Positions 1,792 through 58,397 of a stretch of 64,000 nucleotides of DNA are shown here, in pieces. This stretch comes from Escherichia phage ECP2301: sequence record OR880646.1. One strand, written 5' to 3'. The translations under genes were made by a program, and so were the position numbers. The notes below the pieces were generated by a model. The model saw nothing but the letters and a program-made list of their open reading frames with translations, was not told the DNA's origin and did not search any database. The stretch's first letter is position 1. Every line of letters starts with the position of its first letter.

Positions 1792-1816
1792 AATGTTCTC
1801 CTCAAGTTACAGGCTC

Positions 1817-1846: not shown

Positions 1847-2110
1847 TTATTTCATATTATTGAAATATTCTTCTGCGATTTCGTCGTTATCGTGGTAAAC
1901 TTTAGAAGACAGTTTAACATAACCTTCAGCAGCGAACATGTTAATCACAACCTTTACAGTATACCACTGACCATCTTCATTACCCATTACTGCGTAAGTT
2001 TCAAACATCGGATGGTCAGGACCGATAACTTTAATATCATTCACTGTACGACCGAAATCTTCTGAAACACATTTCATAAAGAAGTTGAACAGTTCGCCGT
2101 AATTATCCAT
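1847..2110 (-). CDS. hypothetical protein (about 87 aa; track ORF trimmed to internal ATG)
   Basis: Track ORF begins with TTG at 2230, but an early-type promoter (-35 at 2177-2183, -10 at 2154-2159) lies inside that extension; first ATG at 2110 has a GGAGA ribosome-binding site. Confidence 0.4.
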   Translation of the reverse strand: MDNYGELFNFFMKCVSEDFGRTVNDIKVIGPDHPMFETYAVMGNEDGQWYTVKVVINMFAAEGYVKLSSKVYHDNDEIAEEYFNNMK

Positions 2111-2153
2111 TTCATTCTCCAAGTTGTTTTCTGTATCAGTAGTTGATAGTTGT

Positions 2154-2183
2154 ATAGTACCATGGAAGAACAGGGGTGTAAAC
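2154..2183 (-). promoter_or_regulatory. T4 early-type promoter (GTTTACA-N17-TACTAT)
   Basis: -35 at 2177-2183, -10 at 2154-2159. Confidence 0.6.
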
Positions 2184-2339
2184 CGTTTTGTGAAAAAATT
2201 TTTAGGGAATTCTGGGGCAGGGAGGGGCAATTAAAAGGTAGGATAATATATTATAAAGGGTATAAACTAAATGATGCCTAGAGAGGCCCAGAAAGGCCTA
2301 GATGCCAAAAAGCCCTATCATTTAGATAGGGATTTAAAA

Positions 2340-2903
2340 TTATTTATCTAGTTTAGTTATTATAGCTTCTGCAGCAGCTTTTAGCTTAGATGCGGTGTTA
2401 ATACGATTTTTAATTTCAGTATACGCATCGCCAAGAACATCAAGGCTATCAGAATAAACACTTACACTATTGCGTTCGCTATTTGAAATAGAACCTTTAG
2501 TTTTGCGGTCAAAATCGGTGTACACGTCTTGAAGATCGCGGGCTGCCTTCTTTGCATCATCCAATGCATCAAGAGCTTTATTCAAAGCATTAACGTATTT
2601 TTTAGTGTCGAACATATTCTTAGAAATTTTAACAGGTGCGCGTTCAGGAGTAGCTAACACAGATTTAGGAACCTGAGCGCCAGATGCCAATTTCTTAGAA
2701 ATTTTGAAAAATGCTTTATTGAATTTATTTTCTTGACTCATTGTAAAAGAACTATTATCGATGTTGTACATTTCAATAGCTTTAGCTTTCCACTTAAGAA
2801 AATCGCCGCGGTCTTTTGGGTCCAATTGGAAGAATACTTTAGTAAGATCTGCTTCAGATGGTAATTTTGCTGCTTCGGTTAAAAATTCGGCATAGGTTTT
2901 CAT
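2340..2903 (-). CDS. internal protein, IPIII-like, with N-terminal capsid targeting sequence (187 aa)
   Basis: N-terminus MKTYAEFLTEA matches the T4 internal-protein capsid-targeting sequence with an L-x-E prohead-protease site; length close to T4 IPIII. Confidence 0.6.
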   Translation of the reverse strand: MKTYAEFLTEAAKLPSEADLTKVFFQLDPKDRGDFLKWKAKAIEMYNIDNSSFTMSQENKFNKAFFKISKKLASGAQVPKSVLATPERAPVKISKNMFDTKKYVNALNKALDALDDAKKAARDLQDVYTDFDRKTKGSISNSERNSVSVYSDSLDVLGDAYTEIKNRINTASKLKAAAEAIITKLDK

Positions 2904-2983
2904 TTAAAATCCTTGAAATAATTTATCGGTTGGTTATTAATTATTTATTACTTTGTTACTATCCGTAGCAGCATTCTCTATGT

Positions 2984-3011
2984 GATTCAAACTAAAAAGC
3001 CCCGACCGAAA
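2984..3011 (-). terminator. intrinsic terminator hairpin plus U5 (downstream of 157-aa gene)
   Basis: Minus-strand RNA: GCCCCAACC-UUUC-GGUCGGGGC followed by UUUUU. Confidence 0.65.
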
Positions 3012-3028
3012 GGTTGGGGCTAAGAATG

Positions 3029-3502
3029 TTATTTGATTTGTTTAGCAGACCAAATGCGGTCTTTAATAATTTTTTGGATGTCTTCAACATACTCAAGAGA
3101 GTGAACATGTGGATTATCTTTGAAACTATAAGCACGGGCTAACTTTTGGCCTTCGGTTTTGATTACTAAAAGCTCTTTAAGGATAGCTTCATATTTAGCG
3201 ATAATTCCTTTAACGATATTTTTTTCTTGTGCCGCTTTAGGATCTGCTTTAGGAGCAGGTTTACCCGAAGGCTTTGCAAAAGCAGCGCCAGTAGCAACTA
3301 AACTTTTCCAGGCCATACTAACTGCATTTCCCGTAAATCCTTCTGCTTTCATGTCGCGAGCAAATTGGAATCGTGATTCGTCAGAAGCATCTTTATAAGA
3401 ATATTTACCCGCTGCAATGGCTGCTTTTGCGACAGCTTGAATTTCGGTGCTAGATGCTTCATTTAACACCGCTTCATTTAAAAATTGAGCATATGATTTC
3501 AT
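3029..3502 (-). CDS. internal-protein-like, capsid-targeted protein (157 aa)
   Basis: N-terminus MKSYAQFLNEA (capsid-targeting-like, L-x-E site); TATAAATA late promoter upstream at 3543-3550; flanked by mirrored terminator hairpins. Confidence 0.55.
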   Translation of the reverse strand: MKSYAQFLNEAVLNEASSTEIQAVAKAAIAAGKYSYKDASDESRFQFARDMKAEGFTGNAVSMAWKSLVATGAAFAKPSGKPAPKADPKAAQEKNIVKGIIAKYEAILKELLVIKTEGQKLARAYSFKDNPHVHSLEYVEDIQKIIKDRIWSAKQIK

Positions 3503-3542
3503 CTTATTTCCTGTTTTAATTCGTGGATTTAATATACTACTA

Positions 3543-3550
3543 TATTTATA
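3543..3550 (-). promoter_or_regulatory. T4 late promoter TATAAATA
   Basis: Revcomp of 3543-3550 is TATAAATA; about 40 nt upstream of the 157-aa capsid-targeted protein gene. Confidence 0.6.
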
Positions 3551-3553
3551 CTA

Positions 3554-3580
3554 AAAAGCCCCAACCTTTCGGTCGGGGCT
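3554..3580 (-). terminator. intrinsic terminator hairpin plus U5 (upstream of 157-aa gene; mirror of 2984-3011)
   Basis: Minus-strand RNA: GCCCCGACC-GAAA-GGUUGGGGC followed by UUUUU; same flanks as 2984-3011 with inverted core. Confidence 0.65.
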
Positions 3581-5036: not shown

Positions 5037-5110
<74 letters not shown>

Positions 5111-5115
5111 AAATT

Positions 5116-5373: not shown

Positions 5374-5661
5374 TTACCATTTATGATAATACATATTTAC
5401 GATGCATTCAAGACCCAAAGGATTCTTGAAAATATCATATTCAAGAGGACCTTTTTCTGTTTCAATAAAGAAATCAAAATTTACTGTATTAAATTTACGG
5501 TCTTCCTTTACTAATTTAACTTGAGAAGATGAACGGTCAATGTAAACCTTTTCAACTTCAAAACATGTTAAAATGCCATAATCATCAATCAAGGCTTTAG
5601 CTGCTTCTTGATCATATTTATATCCATTTTCAATGGATGATACTTTCGCATAAAGAATCAT
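5374..5661 (-). CDS. hypothetical protein (about 95 aa)
   Basis: Track ORF starts with TTG; first ATG at 5661 overlaps the upstream stop (ATGATTATGA-type coupling). Confidence 0.45.
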   Translation of the reverse strand: MILYAKVSSIENGYKYDQEAAKALIDDYGILTCFEVEKVYIDRSSSQVKLVKEDRKFNTVNFDFFIETEKGPLEYDIFKNPLGLECIVNMYYHKW

Positions 5662-5663
5662 TA

Positions 5664-6044
5664 TCAACCTTCATCAACAATAGTATGCGTATTGGCATTT
5701 ACAATTTGCCACCAATCAAAGCGATTAGAACCATAATCTGGTTTGTTTTCATTTTCTTTGATAATGTCACGGAGTTCATCTTCAGTGGCGGCTTTCGCGA
5801 TTAAATCAGCATATCCACCACGAGGATAATAATTATCACCTGCAAAAAGTAAAAAGTTTGGTTTAATGTTATTGAACTCTTCAAGAGTAATAACTTTTCC
5901 TGACGGTTGAACAATCTCTACATATTTATATCCCAATTTTTGAGCAGCATCTACTGCTTCAAGCAAAGTATCATGAGCCCATCCAATTTGACAACCTGGC
6001 TTTTCAGATGGATTAGCCTGATAATCCGCATACACTTTGTACAT
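5664..6044 (-). CDS. hypothetical protein (about 126 aa)
   Basis: Track ORF starts with TTG at 6083; ATG at 6044 preceded by AAGGTGA ribosome-binding site. Confidence 0.45.
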   Translation of the reverse strand: MYKVYADYQANPSEKPGCQIGWAHDTLLEAVDAAQKLGYKYVEIVQPSGKVITLEEFNNIKPNFLLFAGDNYYPRGGYADLIAKAATEDELRDIIKENENKPDYGSNRFDWWQIVNANTHTIVDEG

Positions 6045-6045
6045 T

Positions 6046-6231
6046 CTATTCACCTTTAGAAATTTTATCCATAACGATAGCAATTAAACCAATTAAAAAT
6101 GCTACTACAAGTGAAAAAACATTTTCTGCTGTAGTCAATAATCCACATATAAATCCAACAAACATTGAAAAACTAAAAGCAGAAGCAGAAATTGCAATAG
6201 CAACATTTCGAATTAATTCACAACGTTTCAT
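6046..6231 (-). CDS. small hydrophobic (membrane) protein, 61 aa
   Basis: ATG at 6231 with AGGAGA ribosome-binding site; two hydrophobic stretches; early-type promoter at 6260-6289. Confidence 0.5.
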   Translation of the reverse strand: MKRCELIRNVAIAISASAFSFSMFVGFICGLLTTAENVFSLVVAFLIGLIAIVMDKISKGE

Positions 6232-6259
6232 TTTATTCTCCTCAGTAGTTGATAGGGTA

Positions 6260-6289
6260 ATAGTATCACAACTAAAACCCTATGTAAAC
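6260..6289 (-). promoter_or_regulatory. T4 early-type promoter (GTTTACA-N17-TACTAT)
   Basis: -35 at 6283-6289, -10 at 6260-6265; shares a 30-nt identical block with the promoter at 6590-6619. Confidence 0.65.
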
Positions 6290-6301
6290 AACTTTGTGAA
6301 A

Positions 6302-6559
6302 TTATTTTAAATCTTCTAATCGTTTCTTCATCTTAGAACCGTTCTTAGCGATTTCGCCTGCATCTGAGCATAATGCTAAAAGTGCTTTAACTTTAGTTTG
6401 GTCTCCTTTAAAAGATGAAGGATCGACTGCAGCAGCAAGTTCTTTAATACGAGAGAAAAGACGCTCAGCTTCAGCTAAAGCCATTCCAAGCTTTACTTCC
6501 ATACCGTGGGAAGATTCAGTGATAGTAGTTTTTGTAGCAAACTCTTTGAAAGTTTTCAT
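6302..6559 (-). CDS. small protein with internal-protein-like N-terminus (85 aa)
   Basis: N-terminus MKTFKEFATKTTITE resembles a capsid-targeting sequence with an I-x-E site; ATG at 6559 with AGGAAA; driven by early-type promoter 6590-6619. Confidence 0.5.
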   Translation of the reverse strand: MKTFKEFATKTTITESSHGMEVKLGMALAEAERLFSRIKELAAAVDPSSFKGDQTKVKALLALCSDAGEIAKNGSKMKKRLEDLK

Positions 6560-6589
6560 TTTATTTTCCTAATTAATTTTGATGAGATA

Positions 6590-6619
6590 ATAGTATCACT
6601 ACCTCATCAGCATGTAAAC
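6590..6619 (-). promoter_or_regulatory. T4 early-type promoter (GTTTACA-N17-TACTAT)
   Basis: -35 at 6613-6619, -10 at 6590-6595. Confidence 0.65.
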
Positions 6620-6631
6620 AACTTTGTGAAA

Positions 6632-7328
<697 letters not shown>

Positions 7329-7329
<1 letters not shown>

Positions 7330-8042
7330 TATAGTACCTTTAGTGTATTTTTAATTTTAGAAAAAAGTTCTTCAAGAGAACCATCGTTTGTAATTACTAA
7401 ATCGCCATCACGAATTGGCAATCCAGCTTCTGTAATATGTGTATCATTGGATTTTTGACCAGGACGAACTACATGAATTACTGTAGCACCCATCGCCCTA
7501 GCCGCATCCATTTCATGATCTTGACGAGTATCAGGAACGATATAATAATCATAACCTGAGTTAAATTTATCAAGATAATCTAAAGCAAATAATTTTACCC
7601 AATACATGCGGTCGAAGTTATTAACAATCAAATCCGTACCTAGGGCTTGCATCAGACGACGGACTGACCATTGATCTTCAATATTATTTATAACGTCAGC
7701 AATCTTATTAAATGCTACGAAATTAACTGCGTCATCAAAAACAAATACGCCTTTAATTGGGCTTTTACTATTAAGATAGCAAAATGCTTGTTCCATAATC
7801 GTAATTACTTCTAATTTAGTCAGATTTAAATTAGTCTCACGATCATAGTCAATTCCTTCAAACTCTTTACGAGTTAAGCAAGGATAGTCAGTGTTTGCTG
7901 CAAATACACCCCATGCATAAGCCAATGCATCCTTAATAGGACCAGCAAGTTGATATTTAACTGCAGAATAATTATTCATGATAAAATCTGCAGTAGTATC
8001 TTTTCCACTACGCTTTACACCACTTAAAAAGATTAGTTTCAT
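7329..8042 (-). CDS. 1: deoxynucleoside monophosphate kinase (gp1)
   Basis: P-loop GVKRSGKDT near N-terminus; 237 aa; 57A-1-3-2-4 synteny. Confidence 0.85.
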
Positions 8043-8091
8043 ATGTTTCTCCTCAAATTTAGTTAAGATTATAACACATGAAACTGAAGCA

Positions 8092-8622
8092 TTAAACTTC
8101 TGCTATAATTTTGCCATCTTTTTCTACTTGAAAATACGTATAAGGAATCGTTGCTGTGCATACTAAAGCTGGGTCTGAATCTTCCGTGTAGCTAAATTCT
8201 ACTTCAGACAGGTCAGAAACCCAGGGCTTATAAAAATTTATTGACATCACGATTTCAGTTTTACTATTATCTAAAATGTAAAGCGTAATGTATTCAGGAC
8301 CTGTTTTTTGGGCAGTATTTTCGCCTGTAAGATAGTTACTAGTTCCTAGCATCCATTCATACATTCCTATCCATGACTTAAGCTCTTCATCAACTATAAA
8401 TCTCACGATGAGTGGATCATACTCAAATGTAACTCCTGGACGCTGTGCTCGGCCTAGTCCAAACGGTCCAGTCACGGTATCAGTAACAGGTATCCTAATT
8501 CCTGGAATAGGAACTGACTGAGCATTTAAAGTAAAAGCAGATGTAGTATTACTATGTGGTATTGATACTACAAAGTTAGTTGTATTTGCTTGGTTAAAAA
8601 TTTGTTGTAGTGCTTGCGACAT
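8092..8622 (-). CDS. 3: gp3, tail completion / tube terminator protein
   Basis: Synteny between genes 1 and 2; ATG at 8622 gives 176 aa, the T4 gp3 length (track ORF is extended upstream). Confidence 0.75.
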   Translation of the reverse strand: MSQALQQIFNQANTTNFVVSIPHSNTTSAFTLNAQSVPIPGIRIPVTDTVTGPFGLGRAQRPGVTFEYDPLIVRFIVDEELKSWIGMYEWMLGTSNYLTGENTAQKTGPEYITLYILDNSKTEIVMSINFYKPWVSDLSEVEFSYTEDSDPALVCTATIPYTYFQVEKDGKIIAEV

Positions 8623-8728
8623 ATATTCCTCATAATGCTTCATAAATGTTGGTGGTATAATGGGTCTAAGTCCCTTCCATTCAATTCCAATTAGAACAAA
8701 CAATAGAAAAGAATGGAAGATAATAGAA

Positions 8729-9553
8729 TTAGATATTTGACCAGACTTTGTTTGCAGAGAAACGTTTTCCTTTTGAAACGAACTGCTGAAGTGGCATTAA
8801 CACAACGTTCGCCCAGTCTTTCGGGGCGATTTCAACAAGGCTACCCATGATATTACCGGGTATATATGCCTTAATCATTTGATCTGCACCCCTAAATCCT
8901 TTCACTTGACTCCAATCAATTTTTAATTTCGTTTTATTAGTAATAGTAGGTGTATTTGAATATTGCTTTAAAAGCTCTTCTAGAAATTGCTGACGAGCTT
9001 TAGGTGGAATATAGTGCAAGTTCAATCCGTACATTAAATTATGTTTACCTAAACCAAGATAAATTATCAAAGGAAATTTATCCCAGTAAGGAAGAGTTTC
9101 CTTGTGTTTAGCATCATAAGCAAAAGCATATATTCGTCCCGGCTGCGGGCGAACAACTTTATGTCCTTTTACTTGTTTAATAGTTTCAGCAAACCACTTT
9201 TTGGTTTTATTATTAATTGCTGCACCTTCATTACGAATTTTATCACGCAATGTTTGCCTGAATGAATTTATCATAAGCAGTTGTCTTTCTTGCTTATTGA
9301 GTTTATTCATTGGTTTTGATTCAAGCTTTTGAATCTTTTCAGCTGTTTTAATTCCTGAAGCATATTTTGACATTGCTGAAGTAAACGTAGAGTATTTGAT
9401 TCCTCTTTCTTCGGCAAATTGCTTTCCTGTCATTCCTTTTGCTTTGGCCTTTTTGTATTCAAGACCTATCTGAATCCATTTCTTTTCGTTTAATGATTGC
9501 TTAACCTTTGGAACTTGGGGAGTGCTTTCATTAATTATTTGAAAAATAGCCAT
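8729..9553 (-). CDS. 2: gp2, DNA end-protector protein
   Basis: 274 aa, basic; position between genes 3 and 4 as in T4. Confidence 0.8.
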
Positions 9554-10005
9554 TATGCCCCCTTAAAGCCAAGAGCTCGTAATCCATCTTCTGTTAGAAT
9601 TCTAAATTTTATTCCACGCTTTTCAGCTAAAGCTTGCGCTGCTTTCCATTTGTCAGTATTAACGGAATATGTATAAATTTCATTCATAAATCTTTTCTTC
9701 GCTGCAGTTGTTAGATGTGCTGGTTTAACTGGTGGTTGTGTTTCTTTTTTAGGTTTTATTTCAATAAAAAATTCTTGTCCAGAAGAATCTTTCATCCAAA
9801 TATCCATGAAGTATCTACGTTTTTTCCCTTCTGCATTACAAAAATAAGGAATTACTGCTGTTTCACTACCCCATGCAATAATTTCTGGATTTTTATCTAA
9901 CCATTCAAAAAAGAATTTTTCCCAATTTGATCTATACGTAATTTTTTTAGGGTCACCTCTATATTTTGATATATTTTTAGGAACCCATTTTCCAGAATAT
10001 GCCAT
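9553..10005 (-). CDS. 4: gp4, head completion protein
   Basis: 150 aa; divergent from gene 53 across a bidirectional late-promoter region, as in T4. Confidence 0.8.
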
Positions 10006-10016
10006 TGGATTCTCCT

Positions 10017-10024
10017 TATAAATA
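10017..10024 (+). promoter_or_regulatory. T4 late promoter TATAAATA (gene 53)
   Basis: Exact TATAAATA 29 nt upstream of gene 53 ATG. Confidence 0.7.
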
Positions 10025-10031
10025 GATAATA

Positions 10032-10039
10032 TATTTATA
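10032..10039 (-). promoter_or_regulatory. T4 late promoter TATAAATA (gene 4)
   Basis: Revcomp of 10032-10039 is TATAAATA; 27 nt upstream of gene 4 start. Confidence 0.65.
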
Positions 10040-10052
10040 AACAGGAGGGCCC

Positions 10053-10643
10053 ATGCTCTTTACATTTTTTGATCCGATTGAATATGCGGCCAAAACGGTG
10101 AATAAAAACGCGCCGACTATTCCTATGACAGATATTTTTAGAAACTATAAAGACTATTTCAAACGTGCTCTTGCGGGATACCGCTTACGTACTTATTATA
10201 TTAAAGGTTCACCACGCCCGGAAGAATTAGCAAATGCTATATATGGAAATCCGCAGTTGTATTGGGTTTTATTGATGTGTAATGATAATTATGATCCGTA
10301 TTATGGATGGATTACTTCGCAAGAAGCTGCTTATCAAGCATCTATACAAAAATACAAAAACGTAGGTGGAGACCAAATAGTATATCATGTGAATGAAAAT
10401 GGTGAAAAATTTTATAATTTAGTATCATATGATGATAATCCATATGTTTGGTATGACAAAGGCGATAAAGCTAGAAAATATCCTCAATATGAAGGAGCAC
10501 TTGCTGCGGTCGATACGTATGAAGCTGCTGTTCTTGAAAATGAAAAACTTCGTCAAATAAAAATAATAGCAAAATCAGACATCAATTCATTTATGAACGA
10601 CCTTATACGTATAATGGAGAAATCTTATGGAAATGATAAGTAA
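10053..10643 (+). CDS. 53: gp53, baseplate wedge protein
   Basis: 196 aa; immediately upstream of gene 5; TATAAATA late promoter at 10017-10024. Confidence 0.85.
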   Translation: MLFTFFDPIEYAAKTVNKNAPTIPMTDIFRNYKDYFKRALAGYRLRTYYIKGSPRPEELANAIYGNPQLYWVLLMCNDNYDPYYGWITSQEAAYQASIQKYKNVGGDQIVYHVNENGEKFYNLVSYDDNPYVWYDKGDKARKYPQYEGALAAVDTYEAAVLENEKLRQIKIIAKSDINSFMNDLIRIMEKSYGNDK

Positions 10644-12354
10644 TAACCTTAATTGGTTTGTTGGTGTTGTTGAAGATAGAATGGACCCATTAAAATTAGG
10701 TCGTGTTCGTGTTCGTGTAGTTGGTCTGCATCCACCTCAAAGAGCACAAGGCGACGTAATGGGTATTCCAACTGATAAATTACCATGGATGTCAGTTATT
10801 CAACCTATAACTTCTGCAGCAATGTCTGGAATTGGAGGCTCCGTTACTGGTCCGGTAGAAGGAACTAGAGTTTATGGTCATTTTTTAGACAAATGGAAAA
10901 CTAACGGAATTGTCCTTGGCACGTATGGTGGAATAGTTCGCGAAAAGCCTAATAGACTTGAAGGATTTTCTGACCCGACTGGACAGTATCCTAGACGTCT
11001 AGGAAATGATACTAACGTATTAAACCAAGGCGGAGAAGTAGGATATGATTCGTCTTCTAATATTATCCAAGACAGTAATCTAGACACTGCGATAAATCCT
11101 GATGATAGACCGCTGTCAGAAATTCCAACTGATGATAATCCAAATATGTCAATGGCTGAAATGCTTCGCCGTGATGAAGGATTAAGACTAAAAGTTTATT
11201 GGGATACTGAAGGATATCCGACAATTGGTATTGGTCATCTTATCATGAAGCAGCCAGTTCGTGATATGACTCAAATTAATAAAGTTTTATCAAAACAAGT
11301 TGGTCGTGAAATTACCGGAAATCCAGGTTCTATTACAATGGAAGAAGCGGTAACTTTATTTGAACGTGATTTGGCTGATATGCAACGTGACATTAAATCA
11401 CATTCTAAAGTTGGCCCAGTTTGGCAGGCAGTTAATCGTTCTCGTCAAATGGCATTAGAAAATATGGCATTTCAGATGGGTGTTGGCGGTGTAGCTAAAT
11501 TTAACACAATGTTAACTGCTATGTTAGCCGGAGATTGGGAAAAGGCATATAAAGCTGGTCGTGATTCATTGTGGTATCAACAAACAAAAGGCCGTGCATC
11601 CCGTGTTACCATGATTATTCTTACGGGTAATTTGGAATCATACGGTATTGAAGTGAAAACATCGGCTAGGTCTTTGTCAGCAATGGCTGCTACTGTAGCA
11701 AAGTCTTCTGATCCAGCTGACCCTCCTATTCCGAATGATTCGAGAATTTTATTTAAAGAACCTGTTTCTTCATATAAAGGTGAATATCCGTATGTTCACA
11801 CAATGGAAACTGAAAGCGGTCATATTCAGGAATTTGATGATACCCCTGGGCAAGAACGATACAGATTAGTTCATCCGACTGGAACATATGAGGAAGTATC
11901 ACCGTCAGGAAGAAGAACAAGAAAAACTGTTGATAATTTGTATGATATAACAAATGCTGATGGTAATTTTTTGGTAGCTGGCGATAAAAAGACTAACGTC
12001 GGTGGGTCAGAAATTTATTACAACATGGATAATCGTCTCCACCAAATAGATGGAAGCAATACAATATTTGTGCGTGGCGATGAAACTAAGACGGTTGAAG
12101 GTAATGGAACTATCCTAGTAAAAGGTAATGTTACTATTGTAGTTGAAGGTAATGCTGACATTACAGTTAAAGGAGATGCTACCACTTTAGTTGAAGGAAA
12201 TCAGACTAATACAGTAAATGGAAATCTTTCTTGGAAAGTTGCTGGGACAGTTGATTGGGACGTTGGTGGTGATTGGACAGAAAAAATGGCATCTATGAGT
12301 TCTATTTCATCTGGTCAATACACAATTGATGGATCGAGGATTGACATTGGCTAA
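10627..12354 (+). CDS. 5: gp5, baseplate hub and tail lysozyme (cell-puncturing device)
   Basis: 575 aa; N-terminal MEMISNNLNWFVGVVEDRMDP; central T4-lysozyme-like domain (GYPTIGIGHL); C-terminal VEGN/VKG beta-helix repeats. Confidence 0.95.
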   Translation: MEMISNNLNWFVGVVEDRMDPLKLGRVRVRVVGLHPPQRAQGDVMGIPTDKLPWMSVIQPITSAAMSGIGGSVTGPVEGTRVYGHFLDKWKTNGIVLGTYGGIVREKPNRLEGFSDPTGQYPRRLGNDTNVLNQGGEVGYDSSSNIIQDSNLDTAINPDDRPLSEIPTDDNPNMSMAEMLRRDEGLRLKVYWDTEGYPTIGIGHLIMKQPVRDMTQINKVLSKQVGREITGNPGSITMEEAVTLFERDLADMQRDIKSHSKVGPVWQAVNRSRQMALENMAFQMGVGGVAKFNTMLTAMLAGDWEKAYKAGRDSLWYQQTKGRASRVTMIILTGNLESYGIEVKTSARSLSAMAATVAKSSDPADPPIPNDSRILFKEPVSSYKGEYPYVHTMETESGHIQEFDDTPGQERYRLVHPTGTYEEVSPSGRRTRKTVDNLYDITNADGNFLVAGDKKTNVGGSEIYYNMDNRLHQIDGSNTIFVRGDETKTVEGNGTILVKGNVTIVVEGNADITVKGDATTLVEGNQTNTVNGNLSWKVAGTVDWDVGGDWTEKMASMSSISSGQYTIDGSRIDIG

Positions 12355-53809: not shown

Positions 53810-53813
53810 CAAT

Positions 53814-53845
53814 GGGGACCGAAAGGTCCCCATATTTTTATTTAC
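53814..53845. terminator. bidirectional terminator between gene 54 and minus-strand early genes
   Basis: GGGGACC-GAAA-GGTCCCC followed by ATATTTTTATTT. Confidence 0.65.
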
Positions 53846-54128
53846 GGAATGAAATGAAAGCAGCAACTGAAGCAACTAAACTGTCTTCAATATAAACTTC
53901 AATTTTTACCGGAGCTTCTGACTCAAATTTGCCTGTTACTACACCTTGGAAAATGCTTTCAGTCTGTTCTGGCTTTGAAAAATTTTCAGAAGGAAAAATT
54001 CCGAACTTTTTATCTGTTCCAAAAATTTTGATAAATTCATCATAAACTGCTTCATTAAAAGCGTTATCAGCAGGAATAACGCCTTCAACTACAAGTTCTT
54101 GACCTAAAAAGCGTAAAGAAGATTTCAT
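53838..54128 (-). CDS. hypothetical protein (96 aa)
   Basis: ORF downstream of the Alt-like genes; early-type promoter at 54160-54189. Confidence 0.5.
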   Translation of the reverse strand: MKSSLRFLGQELVVEGVIPADNAFNEAVYDEFIKIFGTDKKFGIFPSENFSKPEQTESIFQGVVTGKFESEAPVKIEVYIEDSLVASVAAFISFRK

Positions 54129-54159: not shown

Positions 54160-54189
54160 ACTATAACACAACACGAGGGACTTGTAAAC
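54160..54189 (-). promoter_or_regulatory. T4 early-type promoter (GTTTACA-N17-TATAGT)
   Basis: -35 at 54183-54189 overlapping the stop of the Alt-like paralog, -10 at 54160-54165. Confidence 0.5.
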
Positions 54190-56246
54190 TACATCTTGAA
54201 CTTTTTAGACATTCCGTTGATGTTAACCAAAGAAGCCAAGATTTGAGAAACTTCGTTTTCCTCTTCTTTTGATTCTTCTACAAGGAATTGATTAAACCCA
54301 GCCATTGGACGAACTTCGCCAGTTTCCATTAGATGATCGCCATCATATACCGATTCTTCTAATTGTTCAGAAGGAGGAACGATTGTGCCTTCGATTAGAT
54401 ACTTGTTATAAGCAGTTTCTTTCATCATGTACGTGCTCACTTTATTAATCTTCAGCAAAATTCCACGCGGTAGAATAACTTCAGCTTCTGATGGAAATCC
54501 CGATAAATGACCTGGAACGATAACTTTGATTCGCTCAGCCCCTTTAATTACCATACCTACGCTAGTTTCAGCATCTTCATTCGCATAAGCAGAATGACTG
54601 CCCATATGCATTAAATCTTCAGCATCAACAGAACCTTCTCCTTCACCAGAAAATACTGCGCCGGAATCATCTAGAGCCATATAGTTTTTACCATGCTCAC
54701 CGAAGATATTTGGTTTAAGCGATGTTGATACGAAGTTCTTGAAATAGAACATTTTATTTTCAATATTATGGCGTAAAGTTTTAAAAGTAACTTCTTGTCC
54801 ACGATAAAGCGTAGTTCCTGGAGGAAGAACTGAACCTTTGGCAAAGGCAGAATCCAGCGTCTCGATGTGTTTAATAGCTCGTTCCATATATTCTTCACGG
54901 GTAGAATCTGGTTTACCCAAGAGGAACGAGTTCATTTCAACATATGAATCTGCACAATAATCTTCAATTACATCAGACTCAGCCTGAGTCAGTCCTTTTG
55001 GAGTTACTTCGGTGCTTGAGTATTCATATGCCTGAGCAGCAGATTCATTAATCAATTTATAAATGCCATTCATGACAAATTGAATAATAGCTACCTTTTC
55101 GTCTGGCGTAGCTTTAGAACCTTTAACTAAATCATTGATAATTTTCTTAATAACATCAAAGCTATTAGAAATATTAATGTCAGCGAGATCGCTCAAAATT
55201 TTATCGGTTTTATAATCAAAAAATTCTTTATTCTTTAAATATTCTTGAGAACCTTGATGTGTTATATCGCTCTGCAGTCTGATAGACGGATCACGTAAAC
55301 GCGCATGGGCCAATGCAATATGATTTCGGAAGCTTTCTAGTTCATAATCGTTAGATTTAAAACGAGAAGCACTTCTCATACCACCGATAGCTCCTTTGCC
55401 GAAGTTTGAACCAATCTGAATAACACCAGAGTTCATTGGTCCTTCTGCTTTATATACCGGAACTTTAGATTCAAACTCTTGATATTTCTTGGCAGCGAAG
55501 CTATCACCCTGTAGCGAAGCATCGACAGTAGAATATTGAGCTTGTGCTGCTAATCGACGACTAATTTTAGTTTTCTGAATAACAGCTTGATCCGTGCGCT
55601 TATCATTTTCTAAAGCAATAGAAGCAGCAACAGCAACAGCTTTAGGAACAGCATTACCTGTTTTAACATCTACATAAACATCACCAACCTTTGATTCAAC
55701 TTTTGTGAATAACTCAGTTGAAATAGGAGGTACACCTGGAATGTCTTCTAAATTGGCATTTTTACGGTAAACCATAATATATGCATACTTTTTATCATAA
55801 TCCCAGATTTCCTTTAAAAGAACATATCGACCTGCTCCTTTAGTACGTACTAAACGGTCAGCAATAACTTGCATTTGACGAGCTGCGCCATTTGTTTTAC
55901 TTTTTAGTACGCGGAATAAGCATGCATCAATTTTATACTGTTTCATTGTTTGAAGAGCAGTATCAAAAACGGCATTAATGACACCAATTGGATTTCCACC
56001 CAAGTTTTTAAGTTTAACTAATGATAGTTTCTCATTAACACCTATCATTACGATATGCATCATTTTATCGCCTGGCTTAACGTTTTTATTTGTATCACCG
56101 CCAGAGGTGTATGTACAAAATCTAAATCCAGGAAGCACGCTTTCTTCACCGGCTTGAATAGCAAAAATTTGAGGTATTTTATGCTTAGGATTTAAGTTAA
56201 CAACCGGCGCCGAAGCGCCGTCAAATAATTCTGTAATAAGTTCCAT
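54189..56246 (-). CDS. Alt-like ADP-ribosyltransferase paralog (685 aa)
   Basis: N-terminus MELITELFDG parallels the adjacent paralog; C-terminal R...STS...E-x-E triad (LYRGQ, FVSTSL, SEAEVILPRG); ATG 3 nt after the upstream stop. Confidence 0.75.
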   Translation of the reverse strand: MELITELFDGASAPVVNLNPKHKIPQIFAIQAGEESVLPGFRFCTYTSGGDTNKNVKPGDKMMHIVMIGVNEKLSLVKLKNLGGNPIGVINAVFDTALQTMKQYKIDACLFRVLKSKTNGAARQMQVIADRLVRTKGAGRYVLLKEIWDYDKKYAYIMVYRKNANLEDIPGVPPISTELFTKVESKVGDVYVDVKTGNAVPKAVAVAASIALENDKRTDQAVIQKTKISRRLAAQAQYSTVDASLQGDSFAAKKYQEFESKVPVYKAEGPMNSGVIQIGSNFGKGAIGGMRSASRFKSNDYELESFRNHIALAHARLRDPSIRLQSDITHQGSQEYLKNKEFFDYKTDKILSDLADINISNSFDVIKKIINDLVKGSKATPDEKVAIIQFVMNGIYKLINESAAQAYEYSSTEVTPKGLTQAESDVIEDYCADSYVEMNSFLLGKPDSTREEYMERAIKHIETLDSAFAKGSVLPPGTTLYRGQEVTFKTLRHNIENKMFYFKNFVSTSLKPNIFGEHGKNYMALDDSGAVFSGEGEGSVDAEDLMHMGSHSAYANEDAETSVGMVIKGAERIKVIVPGHLSGFPSEAEVILPRGILLKINKVSTYMMKETAYNKYLIEGTIVPPSEQLEESVYDGDHLMETGEVRPMAGFNQFLVEESKEEENEVSQILASLVNINGMSKKFKM

Positions 56247-56249
56247 GAT

Positions 56250-58343
56250 TTATCCTTGAACGAACTTGTAAGGCATGTTTGTAATATCTATGCAAGACGC
56301 AATAATTCTAAGAGATGATTCTACTTTTTGTTTAACATTTGATGAAACAAATGATGCAAAATCAACTCTGTCTTCTATTTCAATATCACCTGTCATTGCA
56401 ACTACTTCACCAGTTTCCATTAGACGGTCACCGTCATAAATTACTGATTCGGTGAGTTCTTCCGTAGTCATAACTTCAGCTTGAATGAGTTTTGTATTAT
56501 TAGATGTTGTTCCATCATTATTAGAAGCATCAGTTATTTTATTAACTTTGACCATCAATCCGCGTGGTAGAATAACTTCAGCTTCTGTTGCTATTCCGAG
56601 ACTTCCTGGATATACAACATTAACTTTATGAGCTCCATCAATTGCCCATCCTATTTGAACTTTAACGTATTCAGGATTTTCTTTATACGCTCTTATTTCG
56701 TTTGGATTAATAGTTATTCCTTCTTCATTTTTATCAACTGTCAATTCATTACGAGCTTCTGGTTCTAAAAGACCAATACCAGCATGTGTAATTCCAAAAC
56801 GTCCAAAAATGATAGGAGTTAAAGAAGTAGATACAAAATTTCTGAAATAGAACACTTTATTTTTAACTAGTGCTTCGTATATAGGAGCAGTCATACTTTG
56901 AGCACGATAAACTGTAATGCCTTCTGGTATACGGTCACCATTTTCAAAAGCTGAATCTAAGTTATTTATAGCAGATTCAATTTCTTTTTCACTCATTACA
57001 TCATATCGTTCTGGATTGTAGCGTCCTAAAAGAAGATTATTGATGTCAGTATATCCTGAACCACAATACTCTCTAATGCCGCGCTTTTGTGATGGAGTAT
57101 ATTTAGAACCATCGCGAGCAATAGTAATATCAATCATTGGACCTGCACCAATTCCAGAAAAACTATAAATCATTCGTTTGAGGAATTTAGTTTTTGCTGC
57201 GTTCCAGGAATTTTTAGTTATTTCTTCCCAGACTTCATCTGGCTGTCCTTTACGTGTTTTATTATGTTTATCAAGCCAATTATCTTTATATTCTTCAAAG
57301 AGTTGATTAACGGCTGCTGCGTATTTCTCTAAACATTTTATTGAAGTAGTTGGTTCATTTTTAATCGCATTAAGAATTACATCTTTTATCTTTTCAGAAA
57401 CTTCATTAACCTCACTTTTTGAAAAGAATTTATAATCATAGTGAAGTTCATCTGCAGTTCCTTCGGCAATGATTTTTGCTGCCTTAGTTTTAGAAGCTAT
57501 TGAATTAATTCCAAGTTTCATTTCTTCTGCTTCGGGAATTAAAGGAGCGGTAGCAGGTTTATTGAAATTAGCTGCGGTAGATTCATACTTCTGGAATAAT
57601 TCACTTTCAAATCTAGAAGATTCTAATGATTGACTTTGTGCAATTGCTCTACGGGAAATTTTAACTTTAACGATTACAGCTTGATCAGAACGTTTATCGT
57701 TTTCTTGCGCAATAGATGCAGCAATTGCCTCATTTTTAGTTACTTGAGCTCCGGTATCTTTATTGATATAAACATCACCGACCTTCGATTCAACTTTAGT
57801 AAAGAGCTCGGTACTAATTTCAGGAACTCCTGGAATGTCTTCTAATGATACATTTTTGCGATGTATAAGAATATATGCGTACTTTTTATCGTAATCCCAG
57901 AGTTCCTTAAGAAGGACGTATCTGCCACCTGAACGACTACGGATAAGTCTATCAGCAATAAGTTGAATTTGTCGAGCTTGACCAGCAGTTTTAGACTTAA
58001 GAATACGGAGCATACAGGCATCAATTTTATACTGACGCATTGTTTGCATCGCAACAGTAAAAACTGAATTGATGTAATTAATTGGGCTTGGACCGAGACC
58101 TTTTAATTTAGCGATTGAACCTTTAGCAGTTAATGTAAAAGGAACAATATGCATCATTTTATCGCCCATCTTTAAATCGCGATTAGTATCACCTCCAGAT
58201 GTATAGGTACATAAACGAAAGCCTGGTTGTTCAATTGCGTCATCAACATGAACTGAAAAAATTTGCGGTATTTTCTTCTTTGGATTTAAGTTTGTAATCG
58301 GAAGAGTAGTATCTTCGTCAAATAATTCTGTAATGAGTTCCAT
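56250..58343 (-). CDS. alt: Alt, packaged ADP-ribosyltransferase
   Basis: N-terminus MELITELFDE with I-T-E prohead-protease site; triad VYRAQ, FVSTSL, TEAEVILPRG; TATAAATA late promoter at 58367-58374; start taken at second ATG. Confidence 0.8.
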   Translation of the reverse strand: MELITELFDEDTTLPITNLNPKKKIPQIFSVHVDDAIEQPGFRLCTYTSGGDTNRDLKMGDKMMHIVPFTLTAKGSIAKLKGLGPSPINYINSVFTVAMQTMRQYKIDACMLRILKSKTAGQARQIQLIADRLIRSRSGGRYVLLKELWDYDKKYAYILIHRKNVSLEDIPGVPEISTELFTKVESKVGDVYINKDTGAQVTKNEAIAASIAQENDKRSDQAVIVKVKISRRAIAQSQSLESSRFESELFQKYESTAANFNKPATAPLIPEAEEMKLGINSIASKTKAAKIIAEGTADELHYDYKFFSKSEVNEVSEKIKDVILNAIKNEPTTSIKCLEKYAAAVNQLFEEYKDNWLDKHNKTRKGQPDEVWEEITKNSWNAAKTKFLKRMIYSFSGIGAGPMIDITIARDGSKYTPSQKRGIREYCGSGYTDINNLLLGRYNPERYDVMSEKEIESAINNLDSAFENGDRIPEGITVYRAQSMTAPIYEALVKNKVFYFRNFVSTSLTPIIFGRFGITHAGIGLLEPEARNELTVDKNEEGITINPNEIRAYKENPEYVKVQIGWAIDGAHKVNVVYPGSLGIATEAEVILPRGLMVKVNKITDASNNDGTTSNNTKLIQAEVMTTEELTESVIYDGDRLMETGEVVAMTGDIEIEDRVDFASFVSSNVKQKVESSLRIIASCIDITNMPYKFVQG

Positions 58344-58366
58344 CATATCCTCTCTAGTGTTTATTC

Positions 58367-58374
58367 TATTTATA
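58367..58374 (-). promoter_or_regulatory. T4 late promoter TATAAATA (alt)
   Basis: Revcomp of 58367-58374 is TATAAATA, about 20 nt upstream of alt start. Confidence 0.65.
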
Positions 58375-58378
58375 AAAT

Positions 58379-58397
58379 TAAAGGCCCGAAGGCCTTT
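58379..58397 (-). terminator. hairpin AAAGGCC-UUCG-GGCCUUU upstream of alt late promoter
   Basis: Perfect 7-bp stem with tetraloop followed by A/U-rich tract. Confidence 0.5.

What the first reader, a model, noticed from the sequence alone, without database searches (positions are those of the whole stretch)
54189..58346. Tandem Alt-like ADP-ribosyltransferase paralogs, both apparently capsid-targeted
Two adjacent roughly 690-aa ORFs share N-termini (MELITELFD, with an I-T-E protease site) and C-terminal ART signatures (Arg in YRGQ/YRAQ, FVSTSL, EAEVILPRG), but diverge in the central region that in Alt would contact the target. The second gene starts 3 nt after the first stop, under one late promoter (58367-58374). 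Two packaged ARTs would suggest distinct host targets. I cannot confirm from memory whether reference T4 carries both copies.
Basis: partly seen in the sequence, partly recalled or inferred. Interest (0 to 1): 0.6.

Follow-up and report, generated by a model that had tools for sequence, protein, structure and literature searches.

The report
Tandem Alt ADP-ribosyltransferase genes, T4-like phage
This T4-like phage has two intact, adjacent copies of the injected host-modifying enzyme Alt; this is the normal, already annotated state in most close relatives (including T2 and T6), whereas reference T4 keeps only a decayed stump of the second copy, whose function has never been tested.

Summary
Two adjacent minus-strand ORFs (56250-58343, 697 aa; 54189-56246, 685 aa) are full-length paralogs (41% identity, E 2e-158). 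They are 3 nt apart and lie downstream of a T4 late-promoter motif.

Both carry the ADP-ribosyltransferase domain with an intact Arg / Ser-Thr-Ser / Glu-x-Glu set. Both also keep the two prohead-protease motifs known to be cut in T4 Alt (ITE-6, and L-x-E about 55-65 residues from the C-terminus).

Copy 2 is under strong purifying selection (dN/dS 0.04-0.06), so it is a working gene.

It is not new. The same tandem is found in about 400 phage records, including T2 and T6. Dhakavirus QL01 has three copies.

Reference T4 lacks it. T4's alt.-1/alt.-2 are the first ~350 nt of copy 2, left by a 1-nt frameshift and a 1699-bp deletion between 9-bp repeats. In relatives the stump decays further.

Some isolates (ECML-134, PST) have a single fused gene: copy-1 N-domain plus copy-2 body.

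Inferred, not shown: both proteins are packaged and injected, and their targets differ. The substrate-recognition (ARTT) loop differs systematically between the two lineages. I found no paper that characterises copy 2.

Interest is modest.

The parts
56250..58343 (-). Copy 1, the alt ortholog (697 aa; an extra in-frame ATG at 58346 would add one Met). Layout: N-domain 1-238, helical variable region about 239-415, ART domain about 416-625, C-terminal propeptide after LTE-632.
   Evidence: It is 70% identical to T4 Alt overall. The first 240 and last ~80 residues are 88-100% identical, while the centre and ART domain are only 11-70%. Pfam PF03496 matches at 1.4e-37 and phrog_802 matches end to end.
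54189..56246 (-). Copy 2, the second full-length Alt paralog (685 aa). This is the gene whose remnant in T4 is annotated as alt.-1 and alt.-2.
   Evidence: It is 41% identical to copy 1 and 42% to T4 Alt. PF03496 matches at 3.5e-20 and phrog_802 matches end to end at 8e-256. dN/dS is 0.036-0.064 across five phages. It is at least 95% identical in 396 phage records. In the AF2 model the ART domain matches Vis, C3, CDTa, Vip2 and iota toxin.
58367..58374 (-). T4 late-promoter motif TATAAATA upstream of copy 1.
   Evidence: Exact match, in the same position as upstream of T4 alt. There are 23 matches in the window against 9.2 expected by chance.
58380..58397 (-). G+C-rich hairpin (AAAGGCC-TTCG-GGCCTTT) followed by a T-run. 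It lies between the alt.1 stop and the late promoter and probably terminates upstream transcription.
   Evidence: Read directly from the sequence. The same element is annotated as a terminator in phage OE5505.
56253..56257 (-). Shine-Dalgarno-like AAGGA for copy 2, abutting the copy 1 stop codon (TAA 56250-56252). No terminator lies between the two genes.
   Evidence: Sequence. The terminator scan found none on the minus strand between the genes.
58326..58343 (-). Copy 1 N-terminal MELITE: propeptide / capsid-targeting-like sequence ending in the ITE-6 prohead-protease motif.
   Evidence: Identical to T4 Alt, whose first six residues are removed by gp21 at ITE-6 (PMC5694885). Coordinates.
56229..56246 (-). 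Copy 2 N-terminal MELITE: the same ITE-6 motif.
   Evidence: Glu6 is invariant in 20 Alt-family sequences.
54801..54803 (-). Copy 2 catalytic Arg482 (in LYRGQ).
   Evidence: It aligns with copy 1 Arg480, which aligns with the catalytic-region Arg of CDTa. It is invariant in the family alignment.
54720..54728 (-). Copy 2 Ser507-Thr508-Ser509 (in FVSTSL).
54480..54488 (-). Copy 2 Glu587-Ala-Glu589 (the Glu-x-Glu motif). It is preceded by an ARTT loop, GFPS, with an aromatic residue three positions before the first Glu.
   Evidence: Copy 1 has GIAT and T4 Alt has APSN at the same place.
56823..56831 (-). Copy 1 Ser-Thr-Ser 505-507. Copy 1 Arg480 is at 56904-56906 and Glu-Ala-Glu 587-589 at 56577-56585.
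54351..54365 (-). Copy 2 QLEE|S: the predicted C-terminal gp21 cleavage site (LEE-631). Cleavage there would release a 54-residue C-propeptide.
   Evidence: It aligns with T4 Alt LTE-619 (PMC5694885). The [LIM]-x-E-[SA] motif followed by YDGD is conserved in all 20 aligned sequences. The predicted mature mass is 69.1 kDa.
56445..56459 (-). Copy 1 ELTE|S: the predicted C-terminal gp21 cleavage site (LTE-632).
   Evidence: The local sequence is identical to T4 Alt. The predicted mature mass is 70.1 kDa.
55899..55907 (-). Left copy of the 9-bp direct repeat CTAAAAAGT, at codons 114-116 of copy 2.
   Evidence: In T4 the 1699 bp between this repeat and the right one are missing, and a single repeat copy remains at the junction.
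54200..54208 (-). Right copy of the 9-bp direct repeat CTAAAAAGT, 12 nt before the copy 2 stop.
   Evidence: The T4-type junction is present in 91 phage records.
53838..54128 (-). alt.-3 (96 aa, DUF5498), the next gene downstream. It is preceded by a sigma-70-like promoter (54188-54160) and followed by a bidirectional terminator (53812-53833).
   Evidence: Pfam PF17602 at 1.4e-64; promoter and terminator scan. In T4, C-terminal extensions of Alt.-3 escape the CmdTAC defence system (PMC11618068).
35569..36207 (+). gp21 prohead protease, encoded in the same window. This is the enzyme expected to process both Alt proteins.
   Evidence: Pfam Peptidase_S77 at 1.5e-111. The scaffold protein gp22 and the major capsid protein gp23 lie next to it.

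Best explanation
The window comes from a Tequatrovirus (T2/T6-like T-even phage). It carries the ancestral, intact two-gene alt array.

Both genes encode Alt-family arginine-type mono-ADP-ribosyltransferases with the same four-part layout:
- a conserved N-terminal 'Tevenvirinae' domain of about 230 residues that starts with a short propeptide;
- a fast-evolving helical region;
- a C3/Vip2-like ART domain with the Arg / Ser-Thr-Ser / Glu-x-Glu catalytic set;
- a C-terminal propeptide.

The most likely mechanism runs as follows:
1. Both genes are transcribed late, probably from the one late promoter, as a bicistronic message.
2. Both proteins are built into the prohead core through the shared N-terminal part.
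3. The prohead protease gp21 trims both at ITE-6 and at the C-terminal L-x-E site, giving proteins of about 70 and 69 kDa.
4. Both are injected with the DNA.
5. Both ADP-ribosylate host proteins on arginine in the first seconds of infection.

The two lineages differ systematically in the ARTT substrate-recognition loop and are unrelated in the helical region. They therefore probably have overlapping but not identical target sets.

Shown here: paralogy, intact catalytic and cleavage motifs, purifying selection, the ART fold, the distribution across phages, and the origin of T4 alt.-1/alt.-2 by deletion.

Inferred: co-transcription, packaging, cleavage, injection, enzyme activity and different targets.
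For: - Paralogy and layout.
- ART domain and catalytic residues.
- Fold: the AF2 model (pLDDT 72.8, about 80 in the ART domain) hits Vis, C3, CDTa, Vip2 and iota toxin at E 1e-8 to 1e-5.
- Functional constraint: copy 2 dN/dS is 0.036-0.064, with 51-99 synonymous against 9-19 non-synonymous differences per pair.
- Packaging signals: the first 9 residues are identical to Alt. Glu6 and the C-terminal [LIM]-x-E-[SA]-x-YDGD block are conserved in all 20 sequences. These match the two sites at which T4 Alt is cut (PMC5694885). The protease and scaffold genes are in the window.
- N-domain partnership: it is found only at the N-terminus of proteins of about 600-710 aa, and each of the six full-length ones scanned carries the ART domain (69 cluster representatives in 1.84 billion proteins).
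- Expression: late-promoter motif, 3-nt gap, Shine-Dalgarno sequence abutting the stop codon, no terminator in between.
- Different specificity: the copy-2 lineage has Phe or Tyr three residues before Glu-x-Glu, whereas the copy-1/T4 Alt lineage has Ile, Pro or Gln there. Identity in the central region is 10-20%.
- Ancestral state: the tandem is present in T2, T6, RB51 and about 400 records. T4's stump is 96% identical to the copy 2 5' end. It carries a frameshift and a 1699-bp deletion between 9-bp repeats. Relatives carry further lesions.
Against: - There is no experimental evidence for copy 2 at all: no activity, packaging, cleavage or injection data. I found no paper that characterises it. 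One virion-proteome supplement for a related phage was illegible in the relevant rows.
- [LI]-x-E motifs are common (7 in copy 2, 11 in copy 1), so a motif alone does not prove cleavage.
- Copy 2 is dispensable in nature. It is deleted in 91 records, and the two genes are fused into one in ECML-134, SCS4 and PST. That fits redundancy as well as it fits a distinct role.
- A second TATAAATA inside copy 1 (56963-56970) means a single promoter is not certain.
- The role assigned to the ARTT loop is borrowed from C3 and iota toxins (my own knowledge) and was not tested for Alt.
Confidence: 0.65

Rival explanations
1. Copy 2 is a functional, packaged ART that is largely redundant with Alt and has the same main targets (for example RNA polymerase alpha Arg265). 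It would be kept as extra dosage or as a spare allele that recombination can swap in.
For: - Copy 2 is lost without apparent harm in 91 records, including T4.
- Single fused genes carrying only the copy 2 catalytic body exist in viable isolates.
- alt is not essential in T4 (PMC9026906).
- Copy 1 itself occurs as two very different alleles (window type and T4 type). These are found with or without copy 2, as if the catalytic modules were interchangeable.
Against: - Strong purifying selection has acted on both genes over a long time. Synonymous sites between the paralogs are saturated, with dS above 1. Pure redundancy is not expected to persist that long.
- The two lineages differ systematically in the ARTT loop.
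- The tandem is retained in about 70-80% of Tequatrovirus records.
Confidence: 0.25
2. Copy 2 is an active ART that is not packaged. It would act late in the producing cell, or only as a cytoplasmic enzyme.
For: There are no proteomic data for copy 2. The motifs alone do not prove targeting or cleavage.
Against: - Over the first 40 alignment columns the two paralogs are only 55% identical, yet the first 9 residues are identical.
- The whole N-domain and both cleavage motifs are conserved across the family.
- Copy 2 has the same late-gene context as alt.
- In the natural chimeras the copy 1 N-domain is fused in frame to the copy 2 body at several different breakpoints. This implies that the two N-domains are functionally equivalent.
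Confidence: 0.08
3. Copy 2 is a decaying duplicate or a catalytically dead pseudo-enzyme, as in T4.
For: In T4 and about 90 other records this locus really is a pseudogene.
Against: - In the window the ORF is intact.
- All R-S-E catalytic residues are present and invariant in the family alignment.
- dN/dS is about 0.05.
- It is at least 95% identical in 396 records.
Confidence: 0.02

Closest known systems
Bacteriophage T4 Alt (gpAlt, NP_049811): head-packaged NAD:arginine mono-ADP-ribosyltransferase
   Same: - Both window proteins are collinear with it over the full length.
- They share the N-terminal propeptide MELITE, the N-domain and the R / STS / ExE motifs.
- They share the C-terminal L-x-E site and the YDGD..ETGE propeptide block.
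- They share the late promoter and the genomic slot between gene 30/alt.1 and alt.-3/gene 54.
   Different: - Copy 1 is the positional ortholog but a different allele. Its ends are about 99% identical to T4 Alt, while the helical region and ART domain are only 11-70% identical.
- Copy 2 is a separate old paralog: 42% identical, synonymous sites saturated, a different ARTT loop and an unrelated helical region.
- All experimental knowledge concerns T4 Alt only: RNA polymerase alpha Arg265 and other targets, about 40 copies per head, and the two cleavage sites (PMC2988021; PMC5694885).
T4 alt.-1 / alt.-2 (NP_049810, NP_049809)
   Same: - This is the same locus as copy 2.
- Its DNA is about 96% identical to the first ~350 nt of copy 2 and to the copy 2 3' flank.
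- The PHROG families built from these fragments match copy 2 far better than copy 1: 2e-40 and 3e-38 against 1e-21 and 2e-19.
   Different: - T4 has a 1-nt deletion in an A-run and a 1699-bp deletion between two CTAAAAAGT repeats, so only fragments remain.
- The GenBank notes call this 'a duplication of the first part of gene alt', and the T6 record calls copy 2 an 'apparent insertion in alt.-2'. The comparison here indicates the reverse: a full-length paralog was deleted in the T4 lineage.
Alt paralog arrays in other T4-like phages (44RR ORF187c/188c, RB49 ORF183c; Dhakavirus QL01 with three tandem genes)
   Same: Tandem Alt-like genes in the same slot, 3 nt apart. Paralogous duplication of alt was already described in 2006 (PMC1524935).
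   Different: The copy number differs (one to three) and so do the lineages. The proteins closest to copy 2 outside Tequatrovirus are only 46-50% identical, for example in phages JS10 and KM16.
C3 exoenzyme / Vip2 / iota Ia / CDTa / Vis: the R-S-E clade of bacterial ADP-ribosylating toxins (Pfam PF03496)
   Same: Same catalytic fold and the same Arg / Ser-Thr-Ser / Glu-x-Glu motifs. Glu-x-Glu rather than Gln-x-Glu is typical of arginine-specific members (my own knowledge).
   Different: - Sequence identity is only 15-20%.
- Alt proteins have about 40 extra residues between Ser-Thr-Ser and the ARTT loop (my residue count from the motif positions).
- They also have a 415-residue N-terminal extension and phage-specific propeptides.
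- Delivery is by packaging into the phage head, not by a toxin B-component or by secretion.
T4 internal proteins IPI/IPII/IPIII: head-packaged, injected, hypervariable proteins with a capsid targeting sequence
   Same: The proposed logic is the same: a short N-terminal propeptide ending in L/I-x-E, incorporation into the prohead core, gp21 cleavage, injection with the DNA, and variable presence among relatives (PMC9026906).
   Different: The internal proteins are small, basic and non-enzymatic, and are present at several hundred copies per head. Alt proteins are enzymes of about 70 kDa with an additional C-terminal propeptide.

Membership tests
T4 Alt family (Pfam PF26846 Tevenvirinae_ADPRT + PF03496; phrog_802) | ART catalytic domain (PF03496) scoring above the curated cut-off | tested here: met
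   Copy 1 scores 129.4 bits and copy 2 scores 72.6 bits, against a cut-off of 23.4.
T4 Alt family (Pfam PF26846 Tevenvirinae_ADPRT + PF03496; phrog_802) | R-S-E catalytic set: Arg, Ser-Thr-Ser, Glu-x-Glu | tested here: met
   Copy 2 has R482, S507-T-S509 and E587-A-E589. Copy 1 has R480, S505-T-S507 and E587-A-E589. In the 20-sequence alignment R482, S507, S509, E587 and E589 are invariant; T508 is conserved in at least 90% of the sequences. Copy 1's residues align with those of CDTa.
T4 Alt family (Pfam PF26846 Tevenvirinae_ADPRT + PF03496; phrog_802) | Full-length collinearity with Alt, including the Tevenvirinae-specific N-terminal domain | tested here: met
   phrog_802 matches end to end for both proteins. 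Close homologs carry PF26846 plus PF03496. The N-domain is 65-75% identical between the paralogs.
T4 Alt family (Pfam PF26846 Tevenvirinae_ADPRT + PF03496; phrog_802) | Genomic slot between gene 30/alt.1 and alt.-3/gene 54, behind a late promoter | tested here: met
T4 Alt family (Pfam PF26846 Tevenvirinae_ADPRT + PF03496; phrog_802) | gp21 processing sites at both ends (ITE-6 and L-x-E about 55-65 residues from the C-terminus) | tested here: met
   The motifs are present and conserved in both copies. The reference sites come from PMC5694885. Only the sequence motifs were tested; actual cleavage was not.
T4 Alt family (Pfam PF26846 Tevenvirinae_ADPRT + PF03496; phrog_802) | Physical presence in the phage head and injection with the DNA | not testable with these tools
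   This needs virion mass spectrometry or injection assays. No usable published data were found for copy 2.
T4 Alt family (Pfam PF26846 Tevenvirinae_ADPRT + PF03496; phrog_802) | NAD-dependent ADP-ribosylation of arginine in host proteins (RNA polymerase alpha Arg265 and others) | not testable with these tools
   This is known for T4 Alt only (PMC2988021). Both window proteins differ substantially from T4 Alt in the catalytic half.
C3/Vip2/iota-like R-S-E ART fold | Predicted structure superposes on solved members | tested here: met
   Foldseek against the PDB gives Vis 2.6e-8, followed by C3, CDTa, Vip2, iota Ia and Certhrax. Target-normalised TM-scores for the single-domain targets are 0.55-0.68.
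Decayed alt duplicate (T4 alt.-1/alt.-2 type pseudogene) | Frameshift plus 1699-bp internal deletion; no intact ORF | tested here: not met
   The window has the intact 2058-nt ORF with both 9-bp repeats still in place, and dN/dS is about 0.05.
GNAT acyl-CoA N-acyltransferase fold (considered for the N-terminal domain only) | Significant structural match, plus the motif A pyrophosphate-binding loop (Q/R-x-x-G-x-G/A) between beta4 and alpha3 | tested here: inconclusive
   - In Foldseek the top hits are nearly all GNATs, but with E 0.05-0.36.
- An invariant K117-x-x-G120-x-[AGS] lies between strand 108-114 and helix 122-136.
- No Pfam match was found at E up to 10.

The most novel reading that the evidence does not exclude
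Most T-even phages in nature, T2 and T6 included, would inject two different ADP-ribosyltransferases rather than one. The second would have been overlooked because the reference strain T4 carries only its decayed stump, and because the two mature proteins would nearly co-migrate on gels (about 70 and 69 kDa).

Copy 2 would have its own host targets. One possibility is a host defence or stress protein rather than RNA polymerase. That would fit the presence/absence polymorphism, the cassette-like hypervariable region and the recombinant fusions seen at this locus.

A further speculative layer: the conserved N-terminal domain may be a GNAT-like ligand-binding or enzymatic module rather than a mere packaging handle.
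Probability: 0.4. Interest if true: 0.55.

Novelty: already known. Interest (0 to 1): 0.3.

Why it matters
Alt is the textbook example of a phage enzyme that is injected with the DNA and rewires the host within seconds. All functional work has been done on T4, which turns out to be a minority genotype that has lost the second enzyme.

If copy 2 is packaged and has its own targets, the T4-based picture of early host takeover by T-even phages is incomplete. T2 and T6 would be ready-made systems for finding the missing targets.

The locus is also a clear small example of how tandem paralogs evolve in phages. The tandem is kept intact in most relatives. It is lost by a microhomology deletion followed by pseudogene decay in the T4 lineage. 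It is collapsed by unequal crossing-over into single chimeric genes in others.

In practical terms, the finding corrects two T4-centric database notes: 'duplication of the first part of alt' and 'insertion in alt.-2'.

None of this is a new kind of system.

Tried and rejected
- **Literature.** Nine full-text search calls (15, 16, 18, 21, 22, 34, 84, 85; one search failed on a term that was too short) found no paper characterising the second Alt copy. The only mentions are that T4 alt.-1/alt.-2 and some ORFs in other phages are alt duplications (PMC1524935). The T4 genome review (PMC150520) is not held.
- **Virion proteomics of a related Tequatrovirus (fD1, PMC8309999).** The supplement rows for the alt region are illegible as stored, so they gave no evidence either way.
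- **Solved structures.** Copy 2 has no sequence match in the PDB at E up to 0.01. Copy 1 has only weak matches to CDTa and iota Ia. No Alt structure exists.
- **NCBIfam.** No model matches either protein.
- **Pfam on the N-domain and the helical region alone, at E up to 10.** Nothing meaningful came up.
- **Is the N-domain a general delivery module fused to other effectors?** Rejected for now. In 1.84 billion representatives it has only 69 relatives. Each of the six full-length ones scanned pairs with the ART domain. Two weak relatives (P0183, P0184) have no recognisable C-terminal domain and were not followed up.
- **N-domain as a GNAT.** Left as a lead; both structure searches fall below significance.
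- **Copy 2 as a pseudogene.** Rejected on dN/dS and on the intact motifs.
- **The chimeras as assembly artefacts.** Rejected, because three complete genomes of cultured isolates show the same single fused gene.
- **Sigma-70-type promoters in the region.** They occur at chance frequency, 18 against 18.7 expected.

Full report
**1. What is there**

The window is a T-even (Tequatrovirus) phage genome segment. The 4.9 kb around the finding is 98-99% identical to many isolates, including Shigella phage ESh26, IME339, ime09 and HY01. The flanking genes are the T4 baseplate genes 48 and 54 on one side and alt.1 and DNA ligase (gene 30) on the other.

Two minus-strand ORFs fill the slot:
- Copy 1 is 56250-58343 (697 aa from the T4-equivalent start; one extra in-frame ATG lies at 58346).
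- Copy 2 is 54189-56246 (685 aa).

They are full-length paralogs (41% identity, E 2e-158). The 3-nt gap and the TATAAATA late-promoter motif at 58367-58374 are correct, and the promoter lies in the same position as in T4.

**2. Anatomy**

A three-way alignment with T4 Alt and an AlphaFold model of copy 2 (pLDDT 72.8) give four parts:
- Residues 1-238 form an alpha/beta N-domain, 55-75% identical between the paralogs.
- Residues about 239-415 form an all-helical region that is essentially unrelated between the paralogs (10-20%).
- Residues about 416-625 form the ART domain. Pfam PF03496 matches at 1.4e-37 for copy 1 and 3.5e-20 for copy 2. The model matches Vis, C3, CDTa, Vip2 and iota toxin at E 1e-8 to 1e-5.
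- A C-terminal tail of 54-65 residues follows.

The catalytic Arg, both Ser residues of Ser-Thr-Ser and both Glu residues of Glu-x-Glu are invariant in a 20-sequence family alignment. The Thr is conserved in at least 90% of the sequences. The would-refute condition 'one copy lacks a catalytic residue' is therefore not met.

**3. Packaging signals**

T4 Alt is known to be cut by the prohead protease gp21 at both ends. Six residues are removed at ITE-6 and 63 residues at LTE-619, giving a 68.2 kDa mature protein (PMC5694885).

- Copy 1 is identical to T4 Alt at both sites.
- Copy 2 has ITE-6, and it has LEE-631 at the aligned C-terminal position.
- Across the family, Glu6 is invariant and the block [LIM]-x-E-[SA]-x-YDGD is conserved.
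- The first 9 residues are identical between the paralogs, although the first 40 alignment columns are only 55% identical.
- The protease, scaffold and capsid genes are in the same window.
- The predicted mature masses are 70.1 and 69.1 kDa, so the two proteins would nearly co-migrate on a gel.

These are motif-level arguments. [LI]-x-E is a common tripeptide, with 7 and 11 occurrences in the two proteins. No proteomic evidence for copy 2 could be found.

**4. Is copy 2 a live gene?**

Yes. I compared five phages: the window, ECML-363, RB51, VEc74 and OE5505. Copy 2 dN/dS is 0.036-0.064, with 51-99 synonymous and 9-19 non-synonymous differences per pair. This is as constrained as copy 1 within one allele class, where dN/dS is 0.05-0.09. 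Synonymous sites between the paralogs are saturated (dS above 1), so the duplication is old.

**5. Does T4 have it?**

Reference T4 has alt, then two short ORFs (alt.-1, 61 aa; alt.-2, 67 aa), then alt.-3.

At the DNA level the T4 alt.-1/alt.-2 stretch is about 96% identical to the first ~350 nt of copy 2. It carries a 1-nt deletion in an A-run and then jumps cleanly to the last 12 nt of copy 2. In the window the missing 1699 bp are flanked by a 9-bp direct repeat, CTAAAAAGT (55907-55899 and 54208-54200). T4 keeps one copy of that repeat at the junction.

The PHROG families built from the T4 fragments match copy 2 far better than copy 1.

The same junction occurs in 91 phage records, many of them wild isolates. 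In JEP6 and HY03 the stump shares the frameshift and the deletion, and has picked up a stop at codon 6. HY03 also has a 7-bp duplication. This is ordinary pseudogene decay.

The database notes are therefore T4-centric and point the wrong way. The T4 record says 'duplication of the first part of gene alt', and the T6 record says 'apparent insertion in alt.-2'. The evidence says that a full-length paralog was deleted in the T4 lineage.

**6. How common is the tandem?**

- Copy 2 is at least 95% identical at the protein level in 396 phage records.
- The whole two-gene region is covered at 80% or more in 343 records.
- The classical phages T2 and T6 both have the intact tandem, as do RB51 and RB32.
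- RefSeq routinely labels both genes 'Alt-like RNA polymerase ADP-ribosyltransferase'.
- Dhakavirus QL01 has three tandem genes with the same 3-nt spacing.
- Duplication of alt in T4-like phages, including a full-length duplicate in 44RR, was described in 2006 (PMC1524935).

The feature is therefore standard and already annotated. What is missing is any functional study of copy 2. T4 Alt itself has been studied; it modifies RNA polymerase alpha Arg265 and other host proteins (PMC2988021).

**7. The locus is dynamic**

Beyond intact tandem versus T4-type deletion, two further kinds of variation appear.

First, copy 1 exists as two allele classes. The window type is at least 90% identical in about 317 records; the T4 type falls in the 60-80% band in 215 records. 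The two classes are nearly identical at both ends but only 11-70% identical across the helical region and the ART domain. OE5505 combines a T4-type alt with an intact copy 2.

Second, some proteins are chimeras, with a copy 1 N-domain that switches to copy 2 at about residue 40, 100, 170 or 220. In the cultured isolates ECML-134, SCS4 and Yersinia phage PST, such a chimera is the only alt gene between alt.1 and alt.-3. The same is seen in a 65-kb metagenomic contig. This is what unequal crossing-over between the two homologous N-domains would produce. It also implies that the two N-domains are functionally interchangeable, and that phages carrying only the copy 2 catalytic body are viable.

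**8. Do the two enzymes have different targets?**

This is only inferred. In the related C3 and iota toxins, target recognition lies in the ARTT loop just before Glu-x-Glu; an aromatic residue there is important, and Glu-x-Glu goes with arginine specificity (my own knowledge of that family).

- Both copies have Glu-Ala-Glu, so both should be arginine-specific.
- The copy 2 lineage, including its 46-50% relatives in other genera, always has Phe or Tyr three residues before the first Glu (GFPSEAE, EYPEEAE and similar).
- The copy 1/T4 Alt lineage has Ile, Pro or Gln there (GIATEAE, APSNEME, PQSQEME).

Nothing supports or excludes that. It is simply the fastest-evolving part, even within the copy 2 lineage.

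**9. The N-domain**

It is a very small family. Only 69 cluster representatives were found among 1.84 billion proteins. The domain is always at the N-terminus, and each of the six full-length relatives scanned also carries the ART domain. Pfam now has a model for it, PF26846 Tevenvirinae_ADPRT.

A separate model of residues 1-415 was compared with the PDB by two methods:
- In Foldseek the top hits are nearly all GNATs, at E 0.05-0.36.

Both sets of scores are below significance. An invariant K117-x-x-G120-x-[AGS] lies between a strand and a helix, at the place where GNATs have their pyrophosphate-binding loop. This is a lead, not a finding.

**10. Verdict**

- The implied novelty is not there. 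This is the normal, annotated state of most Tequatroviruses, and T4 is the degenerate exception.
- The useful residue is a testable point: T2, T6 and most relatives probably inject a second, uncharacterised ART that T4-based work could not have seen.

Noticed in passing
window 54200-54208 and 55899-55907 (minus strand); L001 (T4) 5105-5113: A 9-bp direct repeat, CTAAAAAGT, flanks exactly the 1699 bp that T4 lacks. T4's alt.-1/alt.-2 therefore arose by a microhomology deletion (plus a 1-nt frameshift) of a full-length second alt gene. This is the reverse of what the T4 and T6 GenBank notes suggest.
   Followed up: yes
L007 (JEP6) and L008 (HY03), about positions 425-830: Wild isolates share T4's frameshift and deletion. 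They carry further lesions in the stump: GAA to TAA at codon 6 in both, and a 7-bp duplication in HY03. The remnant is decaying as a pseudogene.
   Followed up: yes
L011 (ECML-134) 1501-3561; L012 (Yersinia phage PST) 1501-3561; L010 4001-6055; proteins P0003, P0004, P0005, P0007: These are single chimeric alt genes: a copy 1 N-domain joined to a copy 2 body, with breakpoints at about residue 40, 100, 170 or 220. The chimera is the only alt gene at the locus in L010, L011 and L012 (locus context was not checked for P0003 and P0004). This looks like unequal crossing-over between the tandem paralogs.
   Followed up: yes
window 56250-58343 compared with L001 (T4) 5455-7503: The alt ortholog itself is mosaic. 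Its first 240 and last ~80 residues are 88-100% identical to T4 Alt, but the helical region and ART domain are only 11-70% identical. The database holds two allele classes (about 317 and 215 records), combined with or without copy 2. The 'Alt' of this phage may therefore not share T4 Alt's target list.
   Followed up: partly
[not shown]
   Followed up: partly
window 53838-54128 (minus strand), with a promoter-like site at 54160-54188 and a terminator at 53812-53833: This is alt.-3 (DUF5498, 96 aa), and it has its own sigma-70-like promoter. In T4, C-terminal extensions of this protein let the phage escape the CmdTAC defence system (PMC11618068). In the pairwise comparisons it showed no non-synonymous difference from T4 or VEc74 (dN/dS at most 0.17 in any pair).
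   Followed up: partly
window 56963-56970 (minus strand): A second exact TATAAATA lies inside copy 1, 717 nt upstream of the copy 2 start. It could be an internal late promoter for copy 2, or it could be chance: the window has 23 matches against 9.2 expected.
   Followed up: no
L006 (Dhakavirus QL01) 5995-12255: Three tandem Alt-like genes (694, 681 and 707 aa), each 3 nt after the previous stop, occupy the same slot between alt.1 and alt.-3. Copy number at this locus ranges from one to three across the Tevenvirinae.
   Followed up: partly
proteins P0183 (485 aa) and P0184 (541 aa): These are weak relatives of the Alt N-domain (E 3.5e-8 and 7.9e-7) whose C-terminal parts have no Pfam match. 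The same N-terminal module may here be joined to a different, unknown effector.
   Followed up: no
window 58344-58346 (minus strand): An extra in-frame ATG lies directly upstream of the T4-equivalent alt start, giving MMELITE. T4 has the same ATGATG. With the Shine-Dalgarno sequence GAGG only 2 nt from the first ATG, the second ATG is the more likely start. One review gives the Alt propeptide as 7 residues and the primary paper gives 6.
   Followed up: no
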